Virus record (IMG/VR): IMGVR_UViG_3300025570_000007
Length of the DNA stretch: 64,000 nucleotides
Source of the DNA: a virus
Direction: 5' to 3' (one strand)
The position numbers and the translations under genes are program-made. Shown piece after piece: positions 5,676-29,909 of this stretch. Within the stretch, counting starts at the first letter, position 1; every line of letters begins with the position of its first letter. Under the pieces are notes generated by a model. It was not told the DNA's origin. It made no database searches and saw only the letters and a list, made by a program, of their open reading frames with translations.

Positions 5676-5933
5676 CTAATACTCCCCGTACAGGTCAAAT
5701 TTCTCTGGTTCTGGCGGTGTTGTAGTTATTGTTGTTACTGTTATTGCGTAAAGCTCTCCCTTTAGTGGGTCTAGTTTATAGGAACCTTTATGTTTAGTAG
5801 CTCTCATATAAGCGGTAAGTGCTGGTACTAGTCCTACTATTACATTACTCGGAATAAGAGATACCATCTCCCAGCTATCCCCCGGTGGCTTCCTTGTTGC
5901 TATTAATTCTAAATGTTCCTGTACTTCTTTCAT
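5676..5933 (-). CDS. Hypothetical protein
   Basis: ORF in a tight minus-strand operon. Confidence 0.6.
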   Translation of the reverse strand: MKEVQEHLELIATRKPPGDSWEMVSLIPSNVIVGLVPALTAYMRATKHKGSYKLDPLKGELYAITVTTITTTPPEPEKFDLYGEY

Positions 5934-5936
5934 AAT

Positions 5937-6851
5937 CTACTGTTGAGCTGTTTTTTTAAATAACACATCTGTATTTTCGTACCTCGGTAATACACTTTCA
6001 AGAAGATTAACCGAAGATGCCCTCACTGAATGTATGTCTAATCCTCCTCTTCTGTTGTATATGTTCGCTACAAGAAGTTCTTCTGGTTTATATTTCTCAA
6101 GTAACGTACTGTATATGATCTCTGTCACATTTTCGTGGAAATGTTGAGAGTCTCTAAACGAGATAATGTACTTAGTAAGGGATTCTAGTGTAGGTGCCGA
6201 TGTACCGTTTATAAGTATGTAACAGTTCCCTGTATCTTTTTGATTTGTAATCTCACAATTACTCCTTAGGTTAGCTGTATGGAATGTCATAAATGTACCG
6301 GGCATTCCTGGTACTATGTCTTCCTGCAATAATTCAGGGTTTTCCTTATACTCTGTTACGTTATAACGGTTATCATCTACATTATTAAAAAGTCCCGTGT
6401 CTACCGGGTTTGTCTTAAATCTTGCTTCGTGTGCAATATGCAGGGTTGCTGTAAAAGATCCTCCTACTGCTTCAGAAAGATCGTCTTGAATTACTTGCTC
6501 TACCTCTTCTTTACTGCTAAACTTCTCTAAATCGAAAGAATTTAAGTAAAGTTTAAATGATTTTGACTCTACCATAGATTTTGATGAGGCAAGGTACATT
6601 ATCTTAAGTACTCCTGTAACCGGCATGCCGTTTGGACCTATAAATGACATTTCGTATGCATGCCATACTTCGTAACCTACAAAGTCGGTATTGTCAATAT
6701 TTGATTTTGACCTGTTAAGAGATCTTGGAAGAGGTACCAGTAGTGCCTTATCGTGCTCCTTAGGAGTTACGTACGCCTTTACTAGAGACCCGTCTCCTGC
6801 TTTTCCCAAATGTTTAGATGCTAACTCTCTTAGCTGTTCTGATTCGTTCAT
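5937..6851 (-). CDS. queF: NADPH-dependent preQ0 reductase (bimodular QueF)
   Basis: VESKSFKLYLNSF QueF motif; RSNCEITNQKD catalytic Cys; FHE; RRGGLDI. Confidence 0.88.
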   Translation of the reverse strand: MNESEQLRELASKHLGKAGDGSLVKAYVTPKEHDKALLVPLPRSLNRSKSNIDNTDFVGYEVWHAYEMSFIGPNGMPVTGVLKIMYLASSKSMVESKSFKLYLNSFDLEKFSSKEEVEQVIQDDLSEAVGGSFTATLHIAHEARFKTNPVDTGLFNNVDDNRYNVTEYKENPELLQEDIVPGMPGTFMTFHTANLRSNCEITNQKDTGNCYILINGTSAPTLESLTKYIISFRDSQHFHENVTEIIYSTLLEKYKPEELLVANIYNRRGGLDIHSVRASSVNLLESVLPRYENTDVLFKKTAQQ

Positions 6852-20381: not shown

Positions 20382-20461
20382 AGTATAACCTCTATTTTAC
20401 TTACCTAAAGATAATAAAAAAAGCTCACCGAAGCAAGCTTTTTTAAATCTGTTTTTTTAAA

Positions 20462-20684
20462 ATATTTTATTCTACGAGAATTCTAAGTTGAGTTTTATGC
20501 CACTAACCCTGTGGCAGATAGGAAGCCTTGTTTATACTCCCGAAACAATGTTAAACCTTGCTTTACACGGGTACTCTCTGACTTAAAGAGTGATTTTCAG
20601 TCTGTCGAATTATGTATAGTTATGTGGCTCTTAACCACCTAAGTGTTTTTCGAAGTACCTCAGTCTTTTACTACGTTAAAATAT
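20462..20684 (-). ncRNA. Y RNA-like element E (shared helix enclosing a roughly 150-nt multi-hairpin insert)
   Basis: Minus strand ACGTAGTAAAAGACTGAGGTACTTCG ... CTCAACTTAGAATTCTCGT; directly downstream of Ro60. Confidence 0.6.
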
Positions 20685-20743
20685 TTTAAAAGAACGTTTT
20701 CTGTGTATAAATACACAAGAGGACCCGAAAGTCCTCTTTTTTT

Positions 20744-22288
20744 TTAAATTTCTATAGCTTCAATTGCTTTGATTACAGCTCTTGGATCTATTTCAACTCT
20801 TTTTACTAGCTCATACATTTCTGATGAGTATCCAGCTAACTGGTAAAGTTTTTGAGTTGTTGGCTTAAACATTGTAGTTGAATATCCACAGATGTTTATT
20901 GAATATACGTGCATCTTGTTATAGTTGCTTGGTGAAATGTACGAAGCTCCTTGCATATCCGAGATAATAAAGATTCTGTCGTACTTATTCCCAATCGTAC
21001 TAAAAATACCATTAAACTCAGTTCCATACCCTACAGTTCCCTGTAATTTTCTAAACTGATTTTTAATAGTATTTATACTATCTAAAGGATTGAACTTAAT
21101 TGCAGCGACACTACTAGCGAAGTGGTATACATCGGCGTTAATCCCTTTACCTAAAGTTGCAGCTACTAAAGCAGCTTTTTCAATAGCAGATTTACTACCA
21201 GGTTTCCCATTTGCTAATCTGATCGATGATCCCATTGATCCTGAACTATCAAAGATAACTGCAGTTTTACCTGCTGGAAATAGTGATGTTAGGTTCGGAA
21301 TCGCAAGTTCGTAAGCTTTATCTAGTGCTGTAATGAATGGTAACGCTTTTGACGCTCCTATATCCTGTAGTAACACTTCTAATGCTAAATCGATTTGGTG
21401 AGGGAATACTAGAGATTTTCTAATAGTTGCTTCATCTGTTAAGATAGCAATTGCTCCGTCAATCAATTCTTTATTTGAACTAGTTTGTAAGATATTACGT
21501 AAGTTACGTAGTAACGCTAAATACCCTATTTTTTTAGTTGCAATTAATTCAGCATAATTTGATTCCTTAGCTTGTGTTAACTCTACCTTAGCTTCCGCTT
21601 TAGTAATAGTACCTTCTTTTACTTTCTTAGCAACATCTTGTCCAGCTGATGTATTCTTATCTTCAACAGTGTTGAATTGCTTTAACTCTCCAGTCATTAA
21701 CTGTTTGAAAGTTTTTTGCATATCTTCACTTGGTTTTGGACGAACTAAGTTTACAATATCAACTAAGGAAACATCTTTATTCTTTCCTTGGTATTTTGCT
21801 AACTCGTAAGTATCAGCAGCCTCTAAAGCAGCTTTAAATCCTTTCTTCATTGCGTTTGGCAATGGTTTTCCGGGATTGAAGTGTTGATAACAAGCTACTA
21901 TTTCTAGTAAGTCATCTAACCTAAACACGATACCTCCTGTTTTAAATTTCTTACTTCTCTTTGAGAAGAATTTACGTGCAATTCCTCTACCTGATAGGTA
22001 AGGTGCTAATGCTACTGCTCCAAACTGGGTAACACTTCTTTGGCCCATTACAGATCTAGCATATACTAGTGCTTTAGCTACGAATTCAGGTTCTTTTTGA
22101 GCTAACTTTACGATAAGCTCTTTGAATCTAACTTCTCTGTCTGATAATTTCTCGTAATAAGTATTATCAAAACCTGTTGCTAAAATAGCAACTAATTCAT
22201 GTTTTGGATCTAATTTGTAACCTTCACCTCCTTGGTGGTTTGTTACTGTAGGTGTTGCAGTCTTTTTGTTTTTGTTGTAAACTGACAT
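20744..22288 (-). CDS. rsr: Ro60/TROVE-domain RNA-binding protein with vWA domain
   Basis: TNHQGGEGY, YQ/YELAKY-type segment, GYLALLRNLRNI, DSSGSM MIDAS, SDMQ; 514 aa. Confidence 0.9.
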   Translation of the reverse strand: MSVYNKNKKTATPTVTNHQGGEGYKLDPKHELVAILATGFDNTYYEKLSDREVRFKELIVKLAQKEPEFVAKALVYARSVMGQRSVTQFGAVALAPYLSGRGIARKFFSKRSKKFKTGGIVFRLDDLLEIVACYQHFNPGKPLPNAMKKGFKAALEAADTYELAKYQGKNKDVSLVDIVNLVRPKPSEDMQKTFKQLMTGELKQFNTVEDKNTSAGQDVAKKVKEGTITKAEAKVELTQAKESNYAELIATKKIGYLALLRNLRNILQTSSNKELIDGAIAILTDEATIRKSLVFPHQIDLALEVLLQDIGASKALPFITALDKAYELAIPNLTSLFPAGKTAVIFDSSGSMGSSIRLANGKPGSKSAIEKAALVAATLGKGINADVYHFASSVAAIKFNPLDSINTIKNQFRKLQGTVGYGTEFNGIFSTIGNKYDRIFIISDMQGASYISPSNYNKMHVYSINICGYSTTMFKPTTQKLYQLAGYSSEMYELVKRVEIDPRAVIKAIEAIEI

Positions 22289-22324
22289 AACGATTTGATT
22301 TTAAAAAATTAATAAATATTTCTA

Positions 22325-22366
22325 ATAAAAAAGGGATTAAAATGCTTTTATACTTTTTAATCCCTT
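22325..22366 (-). terminator. Intrinsic terminator between the Y RNA-like array and rsr
   Basis: AAGGGATTAAAA/TTTTAATCCCTT stem followed by a U-tract on the minus strand. Confidence 0.65.
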
Positions 22367-22372
22367 GTGTTG

Positions 22373-22441
22373 TAAGTAGAGAATGTTAAGAAGAGCGTTT
22401 GTTTCTGAATGCGAAGTAACTCTGTCTATGACTACTACTTA
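22373..22441 (-). ncRNA. Y RNA-like element A (minimal)
   Basis: TAAGTAGTAGTCATAGACAGAGTTACTTCG...GCTCTTCTTAACATTCTCTACTTA; the termini pair. Confidence 0.65.
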
Positions 22442-22446
22442 TACTG

Positions 22447-22527
22447 TTCAAGGGAATGGGTGCAGTGGGATATTGTTAATTAGATTTGAAGTCTGAGTCG
22501 AAGTAACCCGGTTGCTAACCACTTGAA
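22447..22527 (-). ncRNA. Y RNA-like element B (helix plus anticodon-arm-like hairpin)
   Basis: TTCAAGTGGT...GGGTTACTTCG-ACTCAGACTTCAAATCTAA...CCCATTCCCTTGAA. Confidence 0.65.
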
Positions 22528-22534
22528 TATGTTG

Positions 22535-22690
22535 TTATAAGGGAATGGGTGATGACAGCTAGTTTTAACGCGCCTTTACCAATTTGGCCACCTCCCAAGA
22601 TTTCTTACTTTCTTAGTTGGGAGGGAAGGACTCGAACCTCCAAATACGTGCTCTAAATGCGATGTAACTGTATTATCTTACCACTTATAA
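22535..22690 (-). ncRNA. YrlA-like Y RNA C (permuted tRNA module)
   Basis: Shared helix encloses T arm GGAGG-TTCGAGT-CCTTC, then a loop-closed acceptor CCTCCCA/TGGGAGG, then D arm TGGCCAAATTGGTAAAGGC. Confidence 0.8.
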
Positions 22691-22703
22691 TATGTTTAAA
22701 AAT

Positions 22704-22840
22704 AAAGAAGGGAACGGCTAACAGAGTGTATATCGTGCTCTACCAACTGAGCTACTGAAGGGATATATTCCCCCAGGCTGGATTCGAACCAGCGACCACG
22801 TCGTTACAAGCGAAGTAATTCTTATTATTACCACTTTTTA
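22704..22840 (-). ncRNA. YrlA-like Y RNA D (permuted tRNA module)
   Basis: T arm GCTGG-TTCGAAT-CCAGC, closed acceptor CTGGGGG/CCTTCAG, D arm GCTCAGTTGGTAGAGC inside the shared helix. Confidence 0.8.
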
Positions 22841-22887
22841 TTTTTTTGTATTTCAATGAACTTTATAGATATTTCTATCTTATAGTA

Positions 22888-22920
22888 TAGAGATAAGTTT
22901 TTTAGTCTTATCTAGCAACT
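22888..22920 (-). promoter_or_regulatory. Bacteroidota-type promoter for the Y RNA-like array
   Basis: AGTTG-N20-TATCTCTA, followed by boxA-like AAGTTCATTGAAA. Confidence 0.55.
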
Positions 22921-22968
22921 CTATTCTACTTTAATTTGAAAAAAGATTTTCTATTGGATAATATACTG

Positions 22969-23040
22969 TGTCCCCAGCAGGATTTGAACCTGCGACCAAT
23001 TCGTTATGAGCGAACCACTCTACCGCTGAGTTATAAGGAC
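22969..23040 (-). tRNA. tRNA-CAT (Met or Ile2)
   Basis: Cloverleaf, loop CTCATAA. Confidence 0.85.
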
Positions 23041-23158
23041 ATTATTAAAGAGAGTTTCGGGTCTTTCAAGGTTACTTCCCTATAGCGAGGCTAACCTTTA
23101 CCTATATCGCCAGCTGTTATGAAGCTTCACTACTCTCCTTAATGGTTTTTAAAATTAG

Positions 23159-23229
23159 AAGCGGTCGTGGGACTCGAACCCAACCGTAGGGTTATGAGCC
23201 CTGCATGCTACCAGTTACAACACCCCGCG
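23159..23229 (-). tRNA. tRNA-fMet(CAT), imperfect acceptor
   Basis: 5' CGCGGGG, GGG/CCC anticodon stem, loop CTCATAA. Confidence 0.75.
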
Positions 23230-23255
23230 ATGTTACTTTCTATTAAACTAATTAG

Positions 23256-23328
23256 CGGTCCACATGGGGGTCGAACCCACAATCTTCGCCGTGACAGGGC
23301 GACATGTTACCAACAACACTTCTGAACC
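23256..23328 (-). tRNA. tRNA-Asp(GTC)
   Basis: Loop CTGTCAC, G73. Confidence 0.85.
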
Positions 23329-23471
23329 GGTTACCTTTACATTCCAAAGGTTAAGCAGGTTTCGTTAATGGACTTTCCTTCCTTGTTTAGACTATCTGTT
23401 TTTACGCCTATATTTCAAAACTGGACTTGTTATCTAATATTCACTTAAGTAGTCATCTTAAGTTAGTTTTG

Positions 23472-23544
23472 TGGAGCCAATGGGATTCGAACCCACATCC
23501 TTTTCGTTGCAAACGAAATGCTCAGCCAGTTGAGCTATGACCCC
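23472..23544 (-). tRNA. tRNA-Ala(TGC)
   Basis: Loop TTTGCAA, G3:U70. Confidence 0.9.
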
Positions 23545-23626
23545 TAGTAAAAGTAGTTAATATGACGTTTGCTCAAGTTATGGTTGACTGCTCAGCCGTA
23601 CTTTAACGGTTCTTTAACTACTTTAG

Positions 23627-23698
23627 TACTGCCGAAGGGTTTCGATCCCTCTTTTACACCGTGAAAGGGTGGTGTCCTAGCCAGTAGACGACGGCAGC
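23627..23698 (-). tRNA. tRNA-Glu(TTC)
   Basis: Loop CTTTCAC. Confidence 0.85.
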
Positions 23699-23804
23699 AT
23701 TTAAATAGTAGGTAAGCTCCACATTTTCACTTACCTAACTTAGCGACCTCTATGGTTGTGAATCCATTTTAAAGGGGTTCCTCGGTTCTAAGTTTACTAT
23801 TTAG

Positions 23805-23877
23805 AGCGGATGATGGGATTCGAACCCACAACATTTAGCTTGGAAGGCTAAGACTCTACCAGTTGAGCTACATCCGC
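23805..23877 (-). tRNA. tRNA-Gly(TCC)
   Basis: Loop CTTCCAA, U73. Confidence 0.92.
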
Positions 23878-23882
23878 ACTTT

Positions 23883-24128
23883 CTATTTCCTGTATGCTGC
23901 TTTTATATCTTCAACACTAAACCAATCATATTCTTTCAAATCAGAAAGAAACCAGTGACATTTATAATCAAAGATATTATAACTTGGAAATACTTTTCTG
24001 TAAGAATTACCGTCAGCGATTTTGTGAGGGTATCTTCTTACTGCTTTACTTGCCATCCTTTTAGCGTGTGGAGTATAGTTTCTGCTATAATCTGATACGA
24101 CAGGATGTTTCTTTTTACTTCTGCTCAT
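23883..24128 (-). CDS. Small basic hypothetical protein
   Basis: MSRSKKKHP... ORF embedded in the tRNA array. Confidence 0.6.
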   Translation of the reverse strand: MSRSKKKHPVVSDYSRNYTPHAKRMASKAVRRYPHKIADGNSYRKVFPSYNIFDYKCHWFLSDLKEYDWFSVEDIKAAYRK

Positions 24129-24200
24129 TGTTTTCTAGTTTAACGATTAACGTAACTAGAATACAGAGTTTTTAAATTTAGTCATAGTGTTTACTTTTTG

Positions 24201-24273
24201 AGCCTCTAACCGGGATCGAACCGATGACAATCACGTTACAAATGTGATGCTCTACCAACTGAGCTATAGAGGC
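24201..24273 (-). tRNA. tRNA-Thr(TGT)
   Basis: Loop TTTGTAA. Confidence 0.9.
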
Positions 24274-24405
24274 AATTAAATTAGAATAGCGCTTGAATGC
24301 CTTTTAAGTTCTCCATCAACCTCTAACTTTTATTAAAAATAACTTGTGTTATTCAACAATATTAATTTCAACTGTTTCTAGCTACACAATAGTTATTTTC
24401 TTTTG

Positions 24406-24480
24406 TACCTGAGAAGGGATTCGAACCCTCATGACCTAGAACCTAAATCTAGTGCGTAATGCCATTTCCGCCACTCAGGC
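24406..24480 (-). tRNA. tRNA-Leu(TAG), short variable arm
   Basis: Loop TTTAGGT, Leu-type D arm, 5-nt variable region. Confidence 0.8.
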
Positions 24481-24563
24481 ATCTCTTATTATCCAATATG
24501 TCAATGATCTCACTACTATTATACCATAAATATACGAAGTTCTACTTTACCTACAAACTTTTT

Positions 24564-24737
24564 CTACTTATTTCTAATTATTTCTTCAATAATAGTGTAC
24601 CTGCTAGGGTAACTTGCAATAACATCTGTTTGGGACAAAAAAGTTATTCTTCCTTTATTTACTATATATGAATCTGCTATTATTTCTTTATAGAACTTAG
24701 CTGATGGCATATTAATATATAATTTATACTTACTCAT
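24564..24737 (-). CDS. Small hypothetical protein (57 aa)
   Basis: Hand translation MSKYKLYINMPSAKFYKEIIADSY... Confidence 0.45.
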   Translation of the reverse strand: MSKYKLYINMPSAKFYKEIIADSYIVNKGRITFLSQTDVIASYPSRYTIIEEIIRNK

Positions 24738-24752
24738 ACTATTTTAATTTAG

Positions 24753-24824
24753 AGGGACATATCGGGATCGAACCGATGTAAATAGTTTTGCAGACTATCA
24801 CCTAAGCCATTCGGCCAATGTCCC
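24753..24824 (-). tRNA. tRNA-Cys(GCA)
   Basis: Loop CTGCAAA, U73. Confidence 0.9.
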
Positions 24825-24948
24825 TTAGGTTCTTCTTCTACTATTTTTTCTGTTGTTGCGTTCATTGTAACTGATTTTTAAATTAATCTTTTAACTGTTA
24901 TTGAGACCTAAATATAATGATTAGATCTCAATTAACCAACTTTCTTGT

Positions 24949-25500
24949 TTAGAAAAGTAAATAAGGTTTCCACTCTTCCGGAATGTATGTTGTCTTCTTT
25001 AGTAACATTAAATAGTGTGGACGTTGTGGTTTTGGTATATTTTTTGTATACTCTTCTACCATTAGATCCGCTTTTTCCCCATTACATTTCTTACAAGCTG
25101 TTACTAGATTATCCCATGCGTTTGGTCCTCCTTTTGATTGAGGAATAACGTGATCTAACGTAAGTAACTTTTTTGTAGTCTGTCCACAATATACACACTC
25201 GAAATTATCTCTTTTATAGATATTCTCTCTTGTTAGTGGTACCTTTTGAAAGTTAAGTTTCACATAAGTGAATACTCTAATAATTGATGGTTTATTAATC
25301 TCTAAATTTGGATTAACAACACCGAATGTCTCTGGGTATTCTGCTATAATGTCTGCATTACCTTTAAAAGAGATTACGAAAGCTCTTTCAGTAGTGATAA
25401 TGCTTCTAGGAATATAGCTAGAATCGACTACCAGAGTTTTACTGTAGCGATTTTTCATAATTTCTACTTTTTGGGTTAATGAAACATTTTCTTTTTCCAT
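24949..25500 (-). CDS. HNH endonuclease (McrA-like)
   Basis: RDNFECVYCG, TLDHVIPQSKGG, NLVTACKKCN. Confidence 0.9.
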   Translation of the reverse strand: MEKENVSLTQKVEIMKNRYSKTLVVDSSYIPRSIITTERAFVISFKGNADIIAEYPETFGVVNPNLEINKPSIIRVFTYVKLNFQKVPLTRENIYKRDNFECVYCGQTTKKLLTLDHVIPQSKGGPNAWDNLVTACKKCNGEKADLMVEEYTKNIPKPQRPHYLMLLKKTTYIPEEWKPYLLF

Positions 25501-25556
25501 ATGCTAAAGATCGCATATAATTATAACTCTACCAACTAAATTAGTAGTTTTCTTTG

Positions 25557-25629
25557 CACGCCTGGAAGGAATCGAACCTTCAACCTTTAGTTTTGGAGAC
25601 TACTGCTCTACCGATTGAGCTACAGACGT
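25557..25629 (-). tRNA. tRNA-Trp(CCA)
   Basis: Loop CTCCAAA, G73. Confidence 0.9.
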
Positions 25630-25634
25630 ATTTA

Positions 25635-25745
25635 CTATGCCACTAATCTACTCTTAGTCTTCCACTTAACTCTGTAAGCGGTTTTGAAGGCTTTACTACG
25701 TCTTGTATTGGCGTAGCCGATCCTTAGCGATTCTTGGTTTCCCAT
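25635..25745 (-). CDS. Small basic peptide (36 aa)
   Basis: MGNQESLRIGYANTRRSKAFKTAYRVKWKTKSRLVA. Confidence 0.35.
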   Translation of the reverse strand: MGNQESLRIGYANTRRSKAFKTAYRVKWKTKSRLVA

Positions 25746-25787
25746 TAAATTACTCATTGATTTATTATTTAAAAATTTATATTTGAA

Positions 25788-26477
25788 TTAGTAGGCTATT
25801 TTTGCCCAACGTGTCTTTCCGCTCCAGATACTGTCTTTCAGTAGTATGAACGGTTGACCCTTAAGTACTACATCCCCTTTTCTTTGTGATTCTTTTGATT
25901 TTCCTATAACTCCCACTCTTATACTACGAGCAGTTTTCGCTTTCCACAGTATAGTGCTTCCTTCTACAGGCTCTATCAGCAATTCTCCTGTTGATTCCTG
26001 TATCTGTACATACCCTTTTTTGGTTAGTAGCTCTTTAATCTTATTTAAAACCTCTCCATCTTTATCTCCTCTCAATTTAATATAATCGGTGTAAGCTTCC
26101 ACAGTATTTTGGTCTTGTGCATAATCCCATAACTGGTATGTGTTTTTTTCTATCTCTAAGTGTACCTGTCTTAAGGAATCATAAGAGATTTTAATAATCT
26201 CTAATTTTACCTTCTCTCCTTGTAGATTTTCTTCTGAGATTTTTAAATCTTCCACTAAAAGTTCTGCTACATCTTTAAGTTTATTTGTTCTTAGCAGTAG
26301 TTCATTTTTTGCATCTCTTTCTCTTACTACCTCGTGTTTTGTCTCAACTGCATAGAATGCAGTAAGGAAGGAAACTATAACTAGTAACACTACTACGCCC
26401 CAAAGTACATTATTAATTGCCCTACTTTTTCGGGCATTCTTATTTGTTACTGCTATTAACTCCTTAATATTACTCAT
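25788..26477 (-). CDS. Membrane-anchored coiled-coil protein
   Basis: One N-terminal TM helix, then coiled coil. Confidence 0.6.
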   Translation of the reverse strand: MSNIKELIAVTNKNARKSRAINNVLWGVVVLLVIVSFLTAFYAVETKHEVVRERDAKNELLLRTNKLKDVAELLVEDLKISEENLQGEKVKLEIIKISYDSLRQVHLEIEKNTYQLWDYAQDQNTVEAYTDYIKLRGDKDGEVLNKIKELLTKKGYVQIQESTGELLIEPVEGSTILWKAKTARSIRVGVIGKSKESQRKGDVVLKGQPFILLKDSIWSGKTRWAKIAY

Positions 26478-26490
26478 AATTATAAACTAT

Positions 26491-26901
26491 TTATGTGCTG
26501 ATATATAATGCTAAATCACTCTCTACTGCTGTTATATCTTGTTCTGAATTAGGAAGTATCCCGTTTTCAATCCTGTTTACAGTTTTATCGAAGATTCGTA
26601 AGCCGTTTAGTTTCTGCTTTTGTACTTTTACTACGTTAAAGGACTTTGAAGCAAATGCTACCGGAAGTACCTCCCCTACAAACCCTGTTACTGTTCCCAT
26701 ATGTTCCCATAGCCCCTGTAATTTTGTAAGGAGTTCTGGCTTAAGTACGAAGAGAAGTCCAACAGCTACTGCAAGTACTATACCAACTATTATATAGGTA
26801 CGGGCTAATTTAATACGTGATTCTAAATCCTCTTTATAGAACTCGATATCATCTTTTAAATCTTCTATTAGTATTTTCTGCGCTTTTGACAGTTCTTCCA
26901 T
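26491..26901 (-). CDS. Two-TM membrane protein
   Basis: Hydrophobic segments. Confidence 0.55.
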   Translation of the reverse strand: MEELSKAQKILIEDLKDDIEFYKEDLESRIKLARTYIIVGIVLAVAVGLLFVLKPELLTKLQGLWEHMGTVTGFVGEVLPVAFASKSFNVVKVQKQKLNGLRIFDKTVNRIENGILPNSEQDITAVESDLALYIST

Positions 26902-26925
26902 AATAATAAATAGTTTGGAATATTG

Positions 26926-26998
26926 TACCCCTCCTAGGATTCGAACCTAAAGTCGCCTCTTTAGAAGAGAGGTGCTTTTCCATTTAAGCTACAGGGGC
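26926..26998 (-). tRNA. tRNA-Arg(TCT)
   Basis: Loop CTTCTAA. Confidence 0.85.
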
Positions 26999-27001
26999 AG
27001 A

Positions 27002-27230
27002 TACCTAGTTTTCGTACTAGGTAAACGTGAATCCGTGCTCCCTTAGAAACACCTAAATTCAACAGCTGCTAGGCTGCTAATGCAAAGTTGTCGTTTGCGT
27101 AAATACTAATCTACTATCATCCACGTTTTCCATTGTCAAAACCAGTCGGCCCCATGGTCTTAAAAGTCTCATAGTGGAGCCGGAGAGTATCGAACTCTCG
27201 TCCAACGAAATGTCAATAATTATCAACGAT
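27002..27230 (-). ncRNA. ssrA: Circularly permuted (two-piece) tmRNA
   Basis: 3' piece GGACGAGAGTTCGATACTCTCCGGCTCCA (27175-27203) precedes the 5' end GGGGCCGACTGGTTTTGAC (starts 27153); tag ANDNFALAA* at 27069-27098; G3:U70; outer ends approximate. Confidence 0.88.
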
Positions 27231-27240
27231 TTGTATTTTG

Positions 27241-27314
27241 TACCTCCAGTAAGACTCGAACTTACAGGTCTTAACGTCCGTAGCGTTATGTTTTTCCAGT
27301 TAAACTATGAAGGC
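27241..27314 (-). tRNA. tRNA-Arg(ACG)
   Basis: Loop CTACGGA. Confidence 0.85.
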
Positions 27315-27379
27315 AGTTGTAGGATATCGCTTAACCTACTAGATGTGATCAATATCTATTTTTTTATACGATTTTTTTG

Positions 27380-27463
27380 TACCCCTGACAAGATTCGAAC
27401 TTGCAAGCCTCTAAGGCAATAGGGCTTAAACCTATCGTGTATCGCCATTTCCACCACAGGGGC
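27380..27463 (-). tRNA. tRNA-Leu(TAA)
   Basis: Loop TTTAAGC, long variable arm. Confidence 0.9.
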
Positions 27464-27521
27464 ATTTGTAATGTCAAAAACTTCCCTAACGGAGGAAAAC
27501 TTCATTACGAGCTTATTTTTG

Positions 27522-27594
27522 GGTGAAAGACGGGGCTCGAACCCGCAATCGCTTGGACCACAACCAAGTGCTTTACCATTCAGCTACAATCACC
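27522..27594 (-). tRNA. tRNA-His(GTG)
   Basis: Loop TTGTGGT, G-1:C73. Confidence 0.88.
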
Positions 27595-27606
27595 ATGTTG
27601 CTCTCC

Positions 27607-27933
27607 TTAATACTCTTTATATATTGCTAAATTATTTTCTACTAACCAATCACTAACGTTAACTCCTTCTATATACACTTCAGCTAAGTACCTTCCGTAC
27701 TTACCTTTCTTATCTTTTCGGGTCTTAATAGTAACTTCCTTACCTAGTACTAATTCTCTTAACCTATCTCTTGAAAATTTACCTGCTTCTTTTTCTTCTC
27801 CTCTAACTTCAGGAGCATCAATTCGTAGAATTCTTAACGGTTCTGTAAATGTCATGTTAAATCCTAAATCGATTTGTGCTGTTACAGTATCACCATCGTA
27901 AACTTTAATAATTTTTGCTTTGTAAGTATACAT
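27607..27933 (-). CDS. Thermonuclease (SNase-like)
   Basis: KVYDGDT, LRIDAPE, GKYGRYLA. Confidence 0.9.
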   Translation of the reverse strand: MYTYKAKIIKVYDGDTVTAQIDLGFNMTFTEPLRILRIDAPEVRGEEKEAGKFSRDRLRELVLGKEVTIKTRKDKKGKYGRYLAEVYIEGVNVSDWLVENNLAIYKEY

Positions 27934-27956
27934 TATATTGTTTATTATAAATATTG

Positions 27957-28028
27957 TACCGATAGAGAATTTTGAAATCTCGACCTATTCCATATGAAGG
28001 AAGTGCTCTGCCTCTGAGCTATATCGGT
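27957..28028 (-). tRNA. tRNA-CAT (Met or Ile2)
   Basis: Loop TTCATAT; T loop TTCAAAA. Confidence 0.8.
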
Positions 28029-28197
28029 ATTATTTTGTGAACCATAAGGGACTCGAACCCTATACCTCCCCTCCTTTCCTACTTATAAGATCTATTAAGT
28101 ATTCATAATCAACGGAAATCACCAAGTATGTTATTGAAGTCAAGAACCTTAATCGATACAGCTCTCAGTCTCGCAATATACAGCCCATATTTTATAG

Positions 28198-28282
28198 CGG
28201 TAGATATGGGATTCGAACCCATGTAGCTTTTACACCCTACTTGTTTAGCAAACAAGCCTCTTTACCGTTTGAGTAATCTACC
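28198..28282 (-). tRNA. tRNA-Ser(GCT)
   Basis: Loop TTGCTAA, long variable arm, G73. Confidence 0.88.
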
Positions 28283-28290
28283 AGTTTTTG

Positions 28291-28362
28291 TCGGCCTAGT
28301 AGGATTTGAACCTACGACTTGCTGTGTATCGGACAGCTACTCTACCGCTGAGTTATAGACCG
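28291..28362 (-). tRNA. tRNA-Ile(GAT)
   Basis: Loop CCGATAC (C33). Confidence 0.8.
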
Positions 28363-28486
28363 TGGTGGGGAAGGTTGGATTTGAACCAACAATGTCAAAT
28401 TTCAAGTTTGATTGTTTACCGAAGTAACTCAATTGTATTACTACCATTTCTGAAGAAAGTCTACGCGAGTTGTTTATTTCTTCCCC
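28363..28486 (-). ncRNA. tRNA/Y RNA hybrid F: tRNA body (anticodon TGA, encoded CCA) with the D arm replaced by the permuted shared helix
   Basis: GGGGAAG/CTTCCCC-A-CCA, T arm GTTGG-TTCAAAT-CCAAC, anticodon arm TCAAA-CTTGAAA-TTTGA; insert GACTTTCTTCAGAAATGGTAGT...GAGTTACTTCG. Confidence 0.75.
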
Positions 28487-28496
28487 ATTTTTACTG

Positions 28497-28570
28497 CTCC
28501 TTAGGTAGGTCTCGAACCTACGACCTATGCATTAACAGTGCACCGCTCTAACCAACTGAGCTACTAAGGA
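28497..28570 (-). tRNA. tRNA-Asn(GTT)
   Basis: Loop CTGTTAA. Confidence 0.92.
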
Positions 28571-28576
28571 ATATAG

Positions 28577-28649
28577 TGGCTATTACCGGGATCGAACCGG
28601 TGACACCTAGATCTTCAATCTAGTGCTCTACCTACTGAGCTAAATAGCC
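28577..28649 (-). tRNA. tRNA-Phe(GAA)
   Basis: Loop TTGAAGA. Confidence 0.92.
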
Positions 28650-28758
28650 TGGCTGGGGTTTAGAGATTTTGTTTAATACTCTCTCCGGGGCCACCCCCTT
28701 TAAGTACTTTTTCAACCATTTTTTCCTGTTTCCTTCTTTCGGTTAGGTCTCCGCCTCG

Positions 28759-28829
28759 TGCCGCCAGTAGGAATCGAACCTACCCAGTAGAGTTTTACAG
28801 ACTCGCTCGGCACCTTGCCTGTTGTCGGC
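28759..28829 (-). tRNA. Atypical tRNA-Tyr(GTA)
   Basis: Loop CTGTAAA; short D loop; no long variable arm. Confidence 0.65.
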
Positions 28830-28835
28830 TTTAAA

Positions 28836-28972
28836 AAAATTAAGAGAAAGTTTAGAAGAGCTGTTTTGGTTGCAGATACGGGATTTGAACCCGTCACCTA
28901 TTGATTTGAAGTCAATTGCTCTACCATGTGAGCTAATTTGCGAAGTAACTCTTTCCATTACTACTTAATTTT
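28836..28972 (-). ncRNA. Y RNA-like element G enclosing a complete tRNA with UCA anticodon (tRNA 28867-28942)
   Basis: AAGTAGTAATGGAAAGAGTTACTTCG-[tRNA, loop CTTCAAA, ACCA]-GCTCTTCTAAACTTTCTCTTAA. Confidence 0.8.
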
Positions 28973-29698: not shown

Positions 29699-29854
29699 TC
29701 AATATCCCGTATCTATTATTAATGGCTGGTTATACTTGCAAATTAAATTACTCGGTACACTAAAGCCATACCATTCCACAATCGAATTTACCCTTTTACT
29801 AAAGGACTGCATCGAGCTGCTTAAAATTGAATGTATGTTACGAATTGTTTTCAT
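29699..29854 (-). CDS. Putative attenuator leader peptide (51 aa)
   Basis: MKTIRNIHSILSSSMQSFSKRVNSIVEWYGFSVPSNLICKYNQPLIIDTGY*, between a promoter and a terminator. Confidence 0.55.
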   Translation of the reverse strand: MKTIRNIHSILSSSMQSFSKRVNSIVEWYGFSVPSNLICKYNQPLIIDTGY

Positions 29855-29872
29855 TGTTCTTGTTATCTTAGA

Positions 29873-29905
29873 TAAATATACGAAGTTTTCCTTTCCTAGC
29901 CAACT
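29873..29905 (-). promoter_or_regulatory. Bacteroidota-type promoter
   Basis: AGTTG-N20-TATATTTA. Confidence 0.65.
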
Positions 29906-29909
29906 CTTT

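What the first reader, a model, noticed from the sequence alone, without database searches (positions are those of the whole stretch)
20462..28972. Ro60-associated family of seven RNAs sharing one covarying helix in three tRNA topologies
Seen: seven minus-strand elements (20462, 22373, 22447, 22535, 22704, 28363, 28836) share 5' G-T-R-G-T-N~11-TACWTCG and a partner strand TTC-Y-C. The helix covaries: GTGGT pairs with TTCCC in B, C, D and GTAGT with TTCTC in A, E, G, giving a helix with one bulged U. Five copies flank the Ro60 gene and two lie 6 kb away inside the tRNA array. Known: Ro60/Rsr binds a bulged helix formed by Y RNA ends, and YrlA RNAs carry a tRNA-like module. Inference: this is a modular Ro-docking handle attached to different cargoes (none, an anticodon hairpin, a permuted tRNA, an intact tRNA, a large structured domain). 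I do not know of such a diversified repertoire being described.
Basis: partly seen in the sequence, partly recalled or inferred. Interest (0 to 1): 0.92.

Follow-up and report, generated by a model that had tools for sequence, protein, structure and literature searches.

The report
Modular phage Y RNAs beside Ro60
This phage carries seven small RNA genes that share one conserved, base-paired handle and sit beside its Ro60 gene, each with a different tRNA-like body; the same uncatalogued RNA family occurs in many Bacteroidota phages (including the model gut phage crAss001) and next to bacterial Ro60 genes.

Summary
Seven minus-strand elements carry GTRGT-N-TACWTCG. There are none elsewhere in the 104 kb record, and shuffles give 0.2.

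The ends form a helix with an invariant bulged U, followed by a second helix. On 76 related copies, 98% of cells are paired and 172 show double changes, against about 50% paired in slid controls.

The handle tracks Ro60:
- Every hit is on the Ro60 strand.
- In complete phage genomes, hits lie only beside Ro60.
- It sits directly upstream of chromosomal Ro60 in Saprospiraceae and other Bacteroidota.
- It was found in 0 of 118 TROVE-less genomes.
- No other neighbouring gene is shared.

The bodies attached to the handle are:
- none (E);
- a stub (D);
- YrlA-like permuted tRNA (B, C);
- a full tRNA (G);
- a large domain (A);
- a tRNA whose D-arm is replaced by a capped, circularly permuted handle (F, confirmed in at least 8 homologs).

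Best reading: an uncatalogued Bacteroidota/phage class of Y RNAs, which Rfam YrlA misses. Ro60 binding is inferred, not shown. Metatranscriptome contigs weakly hint that A is a discrete RNA. The family also occurs in crAss-like phages, where two members are annotated as tRNAs. It is a new variant of a known kind.

The parts
20474..20676 (-). Element A: handle plus a body of about 170 nt, directly downstream of Ro60
   Evidence: The MFE fold contains the terminal helix with the bulged U. The same type and position occurs in L003 and L027. RNA contigs of 4 metatranscriptome runs span about 20449/20475 to 20681/20686.
22708..22836 (-). Element B: handle plus a permuted tRNA-like module of YrlA type
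   Evidence: Rfam YrlA module hit at 22734-22800, 36.3 bits, E=1.3e-5, below gathering. With the terminal helix forced, the fold is 1 kcal/mol above the MFE. Its second helix is in a shifted register, so model R1 scores it only 16 bits.
22535..22690 (-). Element C: handle plus a permuted tRNA-like module of YrlA type with a long closed acceptor hairpin
   Evidence: R1 32.2 bits. Rfam YrlA module 20.9 bits.
22447..22527 (-). Element D: handle plus a short body whose loop CUUCAAA is identical to G's anticodon loop
   Evidence: R1 60.5 bits. Sequence read.
22373..22441 (-). Element E: the handle alone, closed by a loop of about 24 nt
   Evidence: R1 57.8 bits. The MFE fold shows the helix with the bulged U.
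28363..28486 (-). Element F: tRNA-like RNA with acceptor GGGGAAG/CUUCCCC plus ACCA, a T-arm and a long anticodon-like arm. Its D-arm is replaced by a circularly permuted handle capped by GAAA.
   Evidence: At least 8 distinct homologs show covarying acceptor stems and capped helices.
28838..28970 (-). Element G: handle enclosing a complete cloverleaf tRNA (28867-28942, anticodon UCA, C1:A72 mismatch). The CG of UUCG forms tRNA positions 1-2.
   Evidence: ARAGORN. Rfam tRNA 60.5 bits. R1 41 bits. The MFE fold contains both handle helices.
20744..22288 (-). Ro60/TROVE gene (514 aa)
   Evidence: Pfam TROVE E=1.1e-14. Full-length match to Thermus phage phiLo Ro60 (9KOP/9L5Y), E=2.5e-15.
22324..22366 (-). 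Intrinsic terminator-like hairpin (12 bp perfect stem, then UUUUAUU) 7 nt after E. It closes the run from tRNA-Met through B, C, D and E, upstream of the Ro60 start codon.
   Evidence: Read directly from the sequence. The scan tool does not list it because the loop is 12 nt.
20417..20444 (-). Intrinsic terminator after element A
   Evidence: 12 bp stem, UUCG loop, T run.

Best explanation
The seven elements are phage-encoded Y RNAs of a previously uncatalogued class, shared by Bacteroidota and their phages.

Each has a common handle. From the ends inward it consists of:
- a terminal helix, 5' NNNN-G-(bulged U)-R-G-U-A-A paired with 3' (W)UUC-Y-C-NNNN;
- an internal loop;
- a second helix of 4-8 bp;
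- a junction with invariant UUACUUCG on the 5' side and usually (A)ACA on the 3' side.

Shown here: the structure, its conservation, its exclusive linkage to Ro60 genes, and the variety of bodies attached to it.

Inferred, by analogy with the bulged-helix Ro60 site of animal Y RNAs and with the GNCGAA motif that occupies the same position in YrlA: the handle is the Ro60 docking site, so each RNA forms an RNP with the phage Ro60.

Inferred, more weakly: the tRNA-derived heads act as adaptors or decoys that bring tRNA-recognising proteins to Ro60 or divert them. Candidates are PNPase (as in the published Ro60-Y RNA-PNPase complex), RNase P, CCA-adding or modification enzymes, and host anticodon nucleases. 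These heads are permuted, normal-order, or inverse forms in which the tRNA ends are open and the handle is capped. This would happen early in infection, alongside the phage's own tRNA array.
For: 1. Motif. Seven of seven copies are on one strand, against a chance expectation of 0.2.

2. Structure.
- RNAalifold on 11 short members recovers both helices, with 7 of 10 pairs compensatory.
- On 76 members, 98.3% of cells are paired and 172 cells are changed on both sides. Slid controls give 48-62% paired and 9-35 such cells. The R:Y pair is AU 56, GC 18, other 2.
- The bulged U is present in 76/76 and UACUUC is near-invariant.

3. Ro60 linkage.
- All 15 phage loci fetched through Ro60 homologs (34-76% identity) carry several copies on the Ro60 strand. 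This includes L005 and L007, which have no tRNA within 4 kb.
- In a motif-first scan, 14 of 32 model-positive contigs hold TROVE, against 1 of 48 model-negative ones. Most of the rest are fragments under 21% complete.
- In complete 171-175 kb genomes, all hits lie beside Ro60.
- 37 of 69 bacterial Ro60 loci, mostly Saprospiraceae, have hits, and 57 of 57 are on the Ro60 strand.
- One Chitinophagales genome has a single genome-wide hit, directly upstream of Ro60.
- There were 0 hits in 118 TROVE-less genomes of that order.
- No other neighbouring gene is conserved.

4. Y RNA character.
- B and C contain the YrlA tRNA-like module.
- The overall layout (lower stem, internal loop, upper stem, junction, tRNA-like domain) matches the Rfam YrlA consensus seen on CcrColossus.

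5. Expression hint. Four metatranscriptome runs each contain a contig that matches element A nearly end to end.
Against: - No binding data exist. The tools here cannot model a protein-RNA complex.
- The published bacterial Ro60-site motif GNCGAAN0-1G is absent, and Rfam YrlA and Y_RNA do not reach gathering score.
- One 172 kb contig (62% complete) has the handle but no TROVE match.
- Several Saprospiraceae Ro60 loci and two of three TROVE genomes sampled show no hit with the current model.
- The RNA evidence consists of assembled contigs from RNA libraries, which may contain DNA and cannot define transcript ends.
- No RtcB or RNA ligase was found in the 63%-complete record, so an RNA-repair context is not supported.
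Confidence: 0.78

Rival explanations
1. Caged or precursor tRNAs. For members that enclose a complete cloverleaf (G and its kind), the handle is a leader-trailer duplex that holds a real decoding tRNA inactive until RNase P and a 3' nuclease release it. In this window that tRNA would be an opal-reading UCA tRNA. Ro60 would act as chaperone or gate for that maturation. This could hold for a subset and is not exclusive of the main explanation.
For: - G scores 60.5 bits as a tRNA and has an encoded CCA, while the 22 ordinary tRNAs of the array have none.
- The tRNA begins exactly at the CG of the invariant UUCG in G, L003, L010 and L013.
- M. smegmatis YrlA is cut by RNase P and receives CCA in vivo (PMC4201824).
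- In GenBank, such elements in phage csAssE-Sib are annotated as tRNA-Lys and tRNA-Tyr.
Against: - Three orthologous copies keep the D and T arms but carry three different anticodons: GCU, GUG and UUG.
- 13 enclosed tRNA-likes carry 11 different anticodons.
- Ser and Leu anticodons occur without long variable arms. A C1:A72 mismatch is imposed by the motif.
- A subtype has UUACUUC in place of the acceptor 5' strand with no complementary 3' strand.
- The CCA is not conserved in homologs.
- There is no sign of TGA recoding in the window: ORF coverage is 0.75 under table 11 and 0.76 with TGA read as Trp.
Confidence: 0.12
2. Ro60-independent RNA. The handle is a processing or stability signal, for example for a double-strand or junction-specific nuclease that punctuates long tRNA-array transcripts, or it binds some other factor. 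It would sit near Ro60 only because Ro60 is usually embedded in tRNA arrays.
For: - The elements are tightly packed, with 5-17 nt spacers between B, C, D and E, in what looks like a polycistronic run that must be processed.
- Ro60 lies in or beside tRNA arrays in most phage and Saprospiraceae loci.
Against: - Phage loci with no tRNA within 4 kb still have two handles directly upstream of Ro60 (L005, L007).
- Bacterial hits lie within a few hundred bases upstream of Ro60.
- Ordinary tRNAs in the same arrays lack the handle.
- The invariant bulged U and the 8-nt junction indicate recognition by a specific protein, and Ro60 is the only conserved neighbour.
Confidence: 0.07
3. Inert tRNA-derived repeats: SINE-like or duplication debris from the tRNA array, with no function of their own.
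For: The bodies are tRNA-derived and variable. D looks like a deletion derivative of a G-like copy, with an identical CUUCAAA loop.
Against: - Compensatory changes maintain both helices across phages whose Ro60 proteins are only 34% identical, and into bacteria.
- Strand and position relative to Ro60 are conserved.
- The F architecture is maintained with covarying acceptor stems.
Confidence: 0.03

Closest known systems
YrlA (Rfam RF02553; Chen et al. 2014, PMC4201824; structure preprint 10.1101/312249)
   Same: - Encoded beside Ro60 on the same strand.
- Same layout: terminal stem, internal loop, upper stem, then a tRNA-like domain with T-arm, closed acceptor and D-arm (elements B and C).
- A conserved purine-rich motif sits at the end of the lower-stem 5' strand, the same place as GNCGAA.
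- Several Y RNAs per locus, and also found in phages.
   Different: - The handle sequence differs: G(U)RGUAA plus UUACUUCG instead of GNCGAAN0-1G.
- There is an invariant bulged U.
- No copy reaches Rfam's gathering score.
- The same handle also carries normal-order tRNAs, a second permutation (T-arm, closed acceptor, D-arm, anticodon arm), inverse forms, a large domain, or nothing.
- Copy number is 7 here.
- The 2014 survey discarded hits that overlapped tandem tRNA genes, which would exclude loci like this one.
Deinococcus radiodurans Yrn1 and animal Y RNAs (Rfam RF00019)
   Same: - The paired 5' and 3' ends form a helix with a single bulged pyrimidine on the 5' strand, which in animals is the Ro60 site.
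- Yrn1 has its tRNA-like arms in normal order relative to the Ro-binding stem, as G does.
   Different: - No sequence similarity.
- Yrn1's D arm is incomplete and its anticodon-like loop has 6 nt. G is a full cloverleaf.
- Here both orders coexist in one genome on one handle.
Thermus phage phiLo Ro60 with Yrl1/Yrl2 (PMC12135203; PDB 9KOP, 9L5Y)
   Same: - A phage Ro60 with Y-like RNAs encoded next to it. The protein is the closest solved relative (E=2.5e-15).
- Binding to the RNAs and to host PNPase was shown there.
   Different: - Two RNAs, defined by a CGAA motif in a large internal loop.
- No tRNA-like heads or tRNA-array context are reported in that paper.
Ordinary phage tRNA arrays and tRNA-like decoys
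   Same: The elements are interleaved with 22 standard tRNAs, and several are called tRNAs by ARAGORN or Rfam.
   Different: - They carry a covarying leader-trailer handle.
- Their anticodons are not conserved between orthologs.
- They have non-canonical features, such as the C1:A72 mismatch and a missing acceptor 3' strand in one subtype.

Membership tests
Y RNA (functional class: Ro60-bound ncRNA) | Encoded close to the Ro60 gene on the same strand (the bacterial and phage criterion of Chen 2014) | tested here: met
   Five of seven lie within 600 nt of Ro60 and two lie 6 kb away in the array, all on the minus strand. All model hits in 15 phage loci and in 37 bacterial loci are on the Ro60 strand.
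Y RNA (functional class: Ro60-bound ncRNA) | The 5' and 3' ends pair into a stem containing a conserved bulged helix | tested here: met
   98.3% of cells paired, 9 of 10 pairs with double changes, bulged U in 76/76.
Y RNA (functional class: Ro60-bound ncRNA) | Physically bound by Ro60 | not testable with these tools
   No protein-RNA prediction or binding assay is available here. Only co-occurrence was tested.
Y RNA (functional class: Ro60-bound ncRNA) | Accumulates as a discrete small RNA | tested here: inconclusive
   Metatranscriptome contigs of 208-271 nt match element A in four runs, and one contig covers C. Contigs cannot fix ends or exclude DNA carry-over.
YrlA (RF02553) | tRNA-like domain in the order T-arm, closed acceptor stem, D-arm, opening through an anticodon-like stem into the Ro stem | tested here: met
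   B: model positions 24-84, 36.3 bits. C: positions 23-87, 20.9 bits. This holds for B and C only.
YrlA (RF02553) | GNCGAAN0-1G motif near the 5' end | tested here: not met
   The consensus at that position is G-U-R-G-U-A-A. CGAA follows UU only in a minority of copies (column 31 is A in 18 of 76).
YrlA (RF02553) | Rfam gathering score (69 bits) | tested here: not met
   The previously reported CcrColossus YrlA also scores only 42.3 bits.
tRNA (RF00005), for the body of G | Cloverleaf that passes tRNA models | tested here: met
   60.5 bits. ARAGORN calls anticodon UCA.
tRNA (RF00005), for the body of G | Decoding identity conserved among orthologs, with canonical acceptor end | tested here: not met
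   The ortholog trio L010/L013/L082 has anticodons GCU, GUG and UUG. The motif forces a C1:A72 mismatch. G's own direct orthologs were not identified.

The most novel reading that the evidence does not exclude
The Ro60 handle is a general-purpose mount that displays tRNA bodies with fast-changing anticodon loops, and tRNA-like RNAs with open acceptor ends, as Ro60-tethered decoys or sensors for host tRNA-targeting defences such as anticodon nucleases. Alternatively it works as a gated reservoir of special tRNAs such as the UCA tRNA. Either way, Ro60 with its Y RNAs would be an early-expressed counter-defence RNP that protects the translation capacity supplied by the phage tRNA array. This would give phage Ro60 a concrete function and explain why Ro60 genes sit in tRNA arrays in both phages and Saprospiraceae.
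Probability: 0.18. Interest if true: 0.85.

Novelty: new variant of a known kind. Interest (0 to 1): 0.68.

Why it matters
Ro60 and Y RNAs are a conserved RNP from bacteria to humans, and a major human autoantigen. Their bacterial and phage biology rests on a handful of RNAs.

- **New class.** This adds a large, structurally defined class that current models miss. It has clear invariant positions to mutate: the bulged U, GUAA and UUACUUCG.
- **One handle, many bodies.** A single docking module is recombined with tRNA bodies in at least five arrangements. Two of them are inverse forms (tRNA ends open, handle capped) that I found no description of in the papers searched.
- **Experimental route.** The family is present in the cultured gut phage crAss001. 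There the TROVE gene is an early gene (PMC8375218), and a 900-nt unannotated gap after it holds four such RNAs. Direct experiments are therefore feasible.
- **Annotation.** Some "tRNAs" annotated in crAss-like phage genomes are probably Y RNA bodies.
- **Possible lupus link.** If so, abundant phage Ro60 RNPs in the gut may be of interest.

Tried and rejected
- **Nearby DNA in GenBank phages.** The only matches were to generic tRNAs.
- **Rfam at gathering score.** It finds only tRNAs and a permuted tmRNA in the window. The E-value scans add nothing beyond partial YrlA hits.
- **Body of A.** BLAST finds only a 41-nt match in L027. No family could be assigned to the body.
- **Exact 22-mer of F's T-arm and acceptor.** It returned only one other contig. 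A degenerate pattern was needed. That pattern also picked up an unrelated group of ordinary tRNAs (AGTATAG...CTATACT), which I used as a negative control.
- **TGA recoding as the reason for the UCA tRNA.** ORF coverage is unchanged.
- **RNA-repair context.** RtcB and Rnl2 were not found in the 63%-complete record. The Rnl1 search is uninformative because its control rang nowhere.
- **Encoded CCA in G and F as a defining feature.** It is not conserved in homologs.
- **UUACUUCG as a cUUCGg hairpin.** That fits only F in this window and is not conserved.
- **Marginal model hit at 29823-29907** (19.7 bits, E about 0.1). It lacks GURG and I judged it a false positive.
- **Supplementary tables of Chen 2014.** They are not held, so I could not check whether any Bacteroidota or these phages were on their lists.
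- **RNA-library contigs.** Parts of the region without RNA contigs, and the chimeric joints between tRNA-like repeats (table 5), are not interpreted.
- **Promoter scan.** A promoter-like site at 20711-20683 does not fit the RNA contig ends, so I give it no weight.

Full report
**What is at the site.** The window is part of a 104 kb IMG/VR phage record. On the minus strand it carries 23 ARAGORN-called tRNAs and a permuted tmRNA. It also carries a 514-aa Ro60 gene at 20744-22288, with a Pfam TROVE match at E=1.1e-14 and a full-length match to the solved Thermus phage phiLo Ro60 at E=2.5e-15. All copies are on the minus strand, and there are none elsewhere in the window or the whole record, against 0.2 expected from shuffles.

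**Anatomy of the shared module.**
- Reading the copies here and in relatives shows that the 4-6 bases before G-U-R-G pair with the bases after C-Y-C at the 3' end. The U is always bulged.
- The 4-8 bases immediately before UUACUUCG pair with a 3' segment that is usually preceded by (A)ACA and lies 8-10 nt upstream of UUCYC.
- RNAalifold on eleven short members recovers both helices, and 7 of 10 pairs show compensatory changes.
- A covariance model built from them (R1) retrieves 76 members from the window and 37 related loci. On that alignment, 98.3% of pair cells are standard pairs and 172 cells are changed on both sides. Several positions use all four Watson-Crick orientations. When the 3' partner is slid by 1-3 columns, pairing drops to 48-62% and double changes to 9-35. 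The alignment was fitted to the model, which favours the structure, but an effect of this size is not an artefact.
- Invariant or nearly invariant positions are the bulged U (76/76), G-U-A-A after it, U-A-C-U-U-C(-G) at the junction, and U-U-C on the 3' strand.
- For A, E and G the unconstrained MFE fold already contains the terminal helix. For C and D it costs 0.2 kcal/mol, and for B 1 kcal/mol.

**Link to Ro60.**
- All 15 phage loci fetched through Ro60 homologs (34-76% identity) contain several copies, always on the Ro60 strand. Two of these loci have no tRNA within 4 kb, yet carry two elements directly upstream of Ro60.
- In the reverse direction, a motif scan of IMG/VR gave 80 listed stretches. 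Of these, 32 were model-positive. Fourteen of those 32 contigs contain TROVE, and most of the others are fragments under 21% complete. Only 1 of 48 model-negative stretches contains TROVE.
- In three complete 171-175 kb genomes, all hits cluster beside Ro60.
- The nearest cellular Ro60 genes are in Saprospiraceae and other Bacteroidota. Of those loci, 37 of 69 have model hits, all 57 on the Ro60 strand, many within a few hundred bases upstream of the gene.
- In one Chitinophagales genome, the only genome-wide hit is directly upstream of Ro60.
- None of 118 TROVE-less genomes of that order gave a hit, although the tool's filters are strict at that scale.
- No other protein gene of the window's neighbourhood recurs in these loci.

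The motif is therefore not distributed independently of TROVE.

**The bodies attached to the handle.** In the window:
- E has none.
- D has a stub whose loop CUUCAAA equals G's anticodon loop.
- B and C have the YrlA-type permuted tRNA-like module (Rfam partial hits of 36.3 and 20.9 bits).
- G encloses a complete cloverleaf (60.5 bits, anticodon UCA). Its first two bases are the CG of UUCG, which forces a C1:A72 mismatch.
- A has a body of about 170 nt with no recognised family. The same type is found in the same position downstream of Ro60 in L003 and L027.
- F is a tRNA-like RNA with an open 7 bp acceptor stem, a T-arm and a long anticodon-like arm. In it, the handle is circularly permuted, capped by GAAA, and sits where the D-arm should be.

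A homolog from a phage whose Ro60 is only 34% identical has a GUAA cap and compensatory changes in both handle helices. A pattern scan then found at least eight distinct homologs with six different covarying acceptor stems. Eight of twelve such contigs encode a TROVE protein, against none of six control contigs.

Relatives add further arrangements:
- a second permutation, in the order T-arm, closed acceptor, D-arm, anticodon arm;
- a subtype in which UUACUUC occupies the acceptor 5' strand position and an extra 3' hairpin follows the T-arm;
- in crAss001, a tRNA-like RNA whose anticodon arm is replaced by the capped handle.

**Are the enclosed tRNAs real decoders?** Probably mostly not.
- Three orthologous copies keep the D and T arms but have anticodons GCU, GUG and UUG, with compensating stem changes.
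- Thirteen enclosed tRNA-likes carry eleven different anticodons.
- Ser and Leu anticodons occur without long variable arms.
- G and F encode CCA, while the 22 ordinary tRNAs do not. That CCA is not conserved in homologs.
- There is no sign of TGA reassignment.

A caged-tRNA role for a subset cannot be excluded, and I keep it as a rival.

**Expression.** Four metatranscriptome runs from four studies, possibly one campaign, each contain a contig that matches A almost end to end (20449/20475 to 20681/20686). These contigs have the highest depth among the pieces laid. One contig covers C. This is a weak hint of a discrete, stable RNA and nothing more. B, C, D and E are packed with 5-17 nt spacers between tRNA-Met and a perfect 12 bp terminator hairpin that precedes the Ro60 start codon. 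A is followed by its own terminator.

**Comparison with what is known.**
- Y RNAs next to bacterial and phage Ro60, several per genome, with tRNA-like domains, are established (PMC4201824). A phage Ro60 binding two adjacent Y-like RNAs and host PNPase has been shown (PMC12135203).
- The YrlA consensus, seen on CcrColossus, has the same overall layout. It places its GNCGAA motif at the end of the lower-stem 5' strand, exactly where G(U)RGUAA lies here.
- This finding is therefore a Y RNA class, not a new kind of system.
- It differs in handle sequence and in the bulged U. It falls below Rfam thresholds everywhere tested. It reaches seven copies per genome, is interleaved with tRNA arrays, and reuses one handle with many body topologies, including the inverse forms.
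- The 2014 survey explicitly discarded candidates that overlapped tandem tRNA genes. That may be why such loci were missed.
- I found no paper in the held library that describes Y RNAs of Bacteroidota or crAss-like phages.

**Reach beyond this window.**
- The handle is present upstream of Ro60 in a 635 kb uncultured phage (LR745206).
- It is also present in the crAss-like phage csAssE-Sib, where two of three elements are annotated as tRNA-Tyr and tRNA-Lys.
- In the cultured phage crAss001, a 900-nt unannotated gap after the early TROVE gene gp96 holds two short elements, one anticodon-arm-replaced form and one F-type form. The junction motif there is UUACUUCA or UUACAUCA (PMC8375218 for early expression).

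**Verdict.** The structure and its Ro60 linkage are shown. Ro60 docking and the adaptor or decoy role of the heads are inferred. I rate this a new variant of a known kind, with good experimental access.

Noticed in passing
window 27069-27227 (-): A permuted tmRNA (Rfam RF04321, 64.3 bits, above gathering) sits inside the phage tRNA array.
   Followed up: no
window 28759-28829 (-): A tRNA-like sequence lies just below Rfam gathering (28.1 vs 29 bits) and is not called by ARAGORN. It is directly downstream of G. Its anticodon-loop-like CUGUAAA would read GUA (Tyr), an isoacceptor otherwise missing from the array.
   Followed up: no
L327 5811-6715 (Bacteroides phage crAss001 MH675552, after TROVE gp96): The 900-nt unannotated gap contains four handle-bearing RNAs. 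Two are short forms (5907-5990, 6003-6078). One is a tRNA-like RNA whose anticodon arm is replaced by a capped handle (6083-6229). One is an F-type (6338-6476).
   Followed up: partly
L138 5498-5912 (phage csAssE-Sib OR575929): Three handle elements lie upstream of the annotated 'Ro sixty-related protein'. The annotated tRNA-Tyr and tRNA-Lys lie inside two of them.
   Followed up: partly
L148, L163, L175, L154, L183 (Saprospiraceae chromosomal contigs up to 660 kb): The chromosomal Ro60 gene is immediately preceded, on the same strand, by an array of about 6-25 tRNA genes. Ro60 with a tRNA array is thus a unit shared by phages and cells.
   Followed up: no
window 24949-25500 (-) and 27607-27933 (-): An HNH endonuclease ORF and a staphylococcal-nuclease-like ORF are embedded in the tRNA array.
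   Followed up: no
window 22447-22527 vs 28838-28970: D's apical loop CUUCAAA is identical to the anticodon loop of the tRNA enclosed in G. This suggests D is a deletion derivative of a G-like copy.
   Followed up: no
window 28363-28365 and 28867-28870: F and G have an encoded 3' CCA, whereas none of the 22 ordinary tRNAs in the array does. The CCA is not conserved in homologs elsewhere.
   Followed up: partly
L139 (CALMEO010000055.1, 104,613 bp, filed as an uncultured bacterium MAG): This contig has a Ro60 at 74% identity and five strong handle hits. It looks like a phage genome binned into a bacterial MAG.
   Followed up: no
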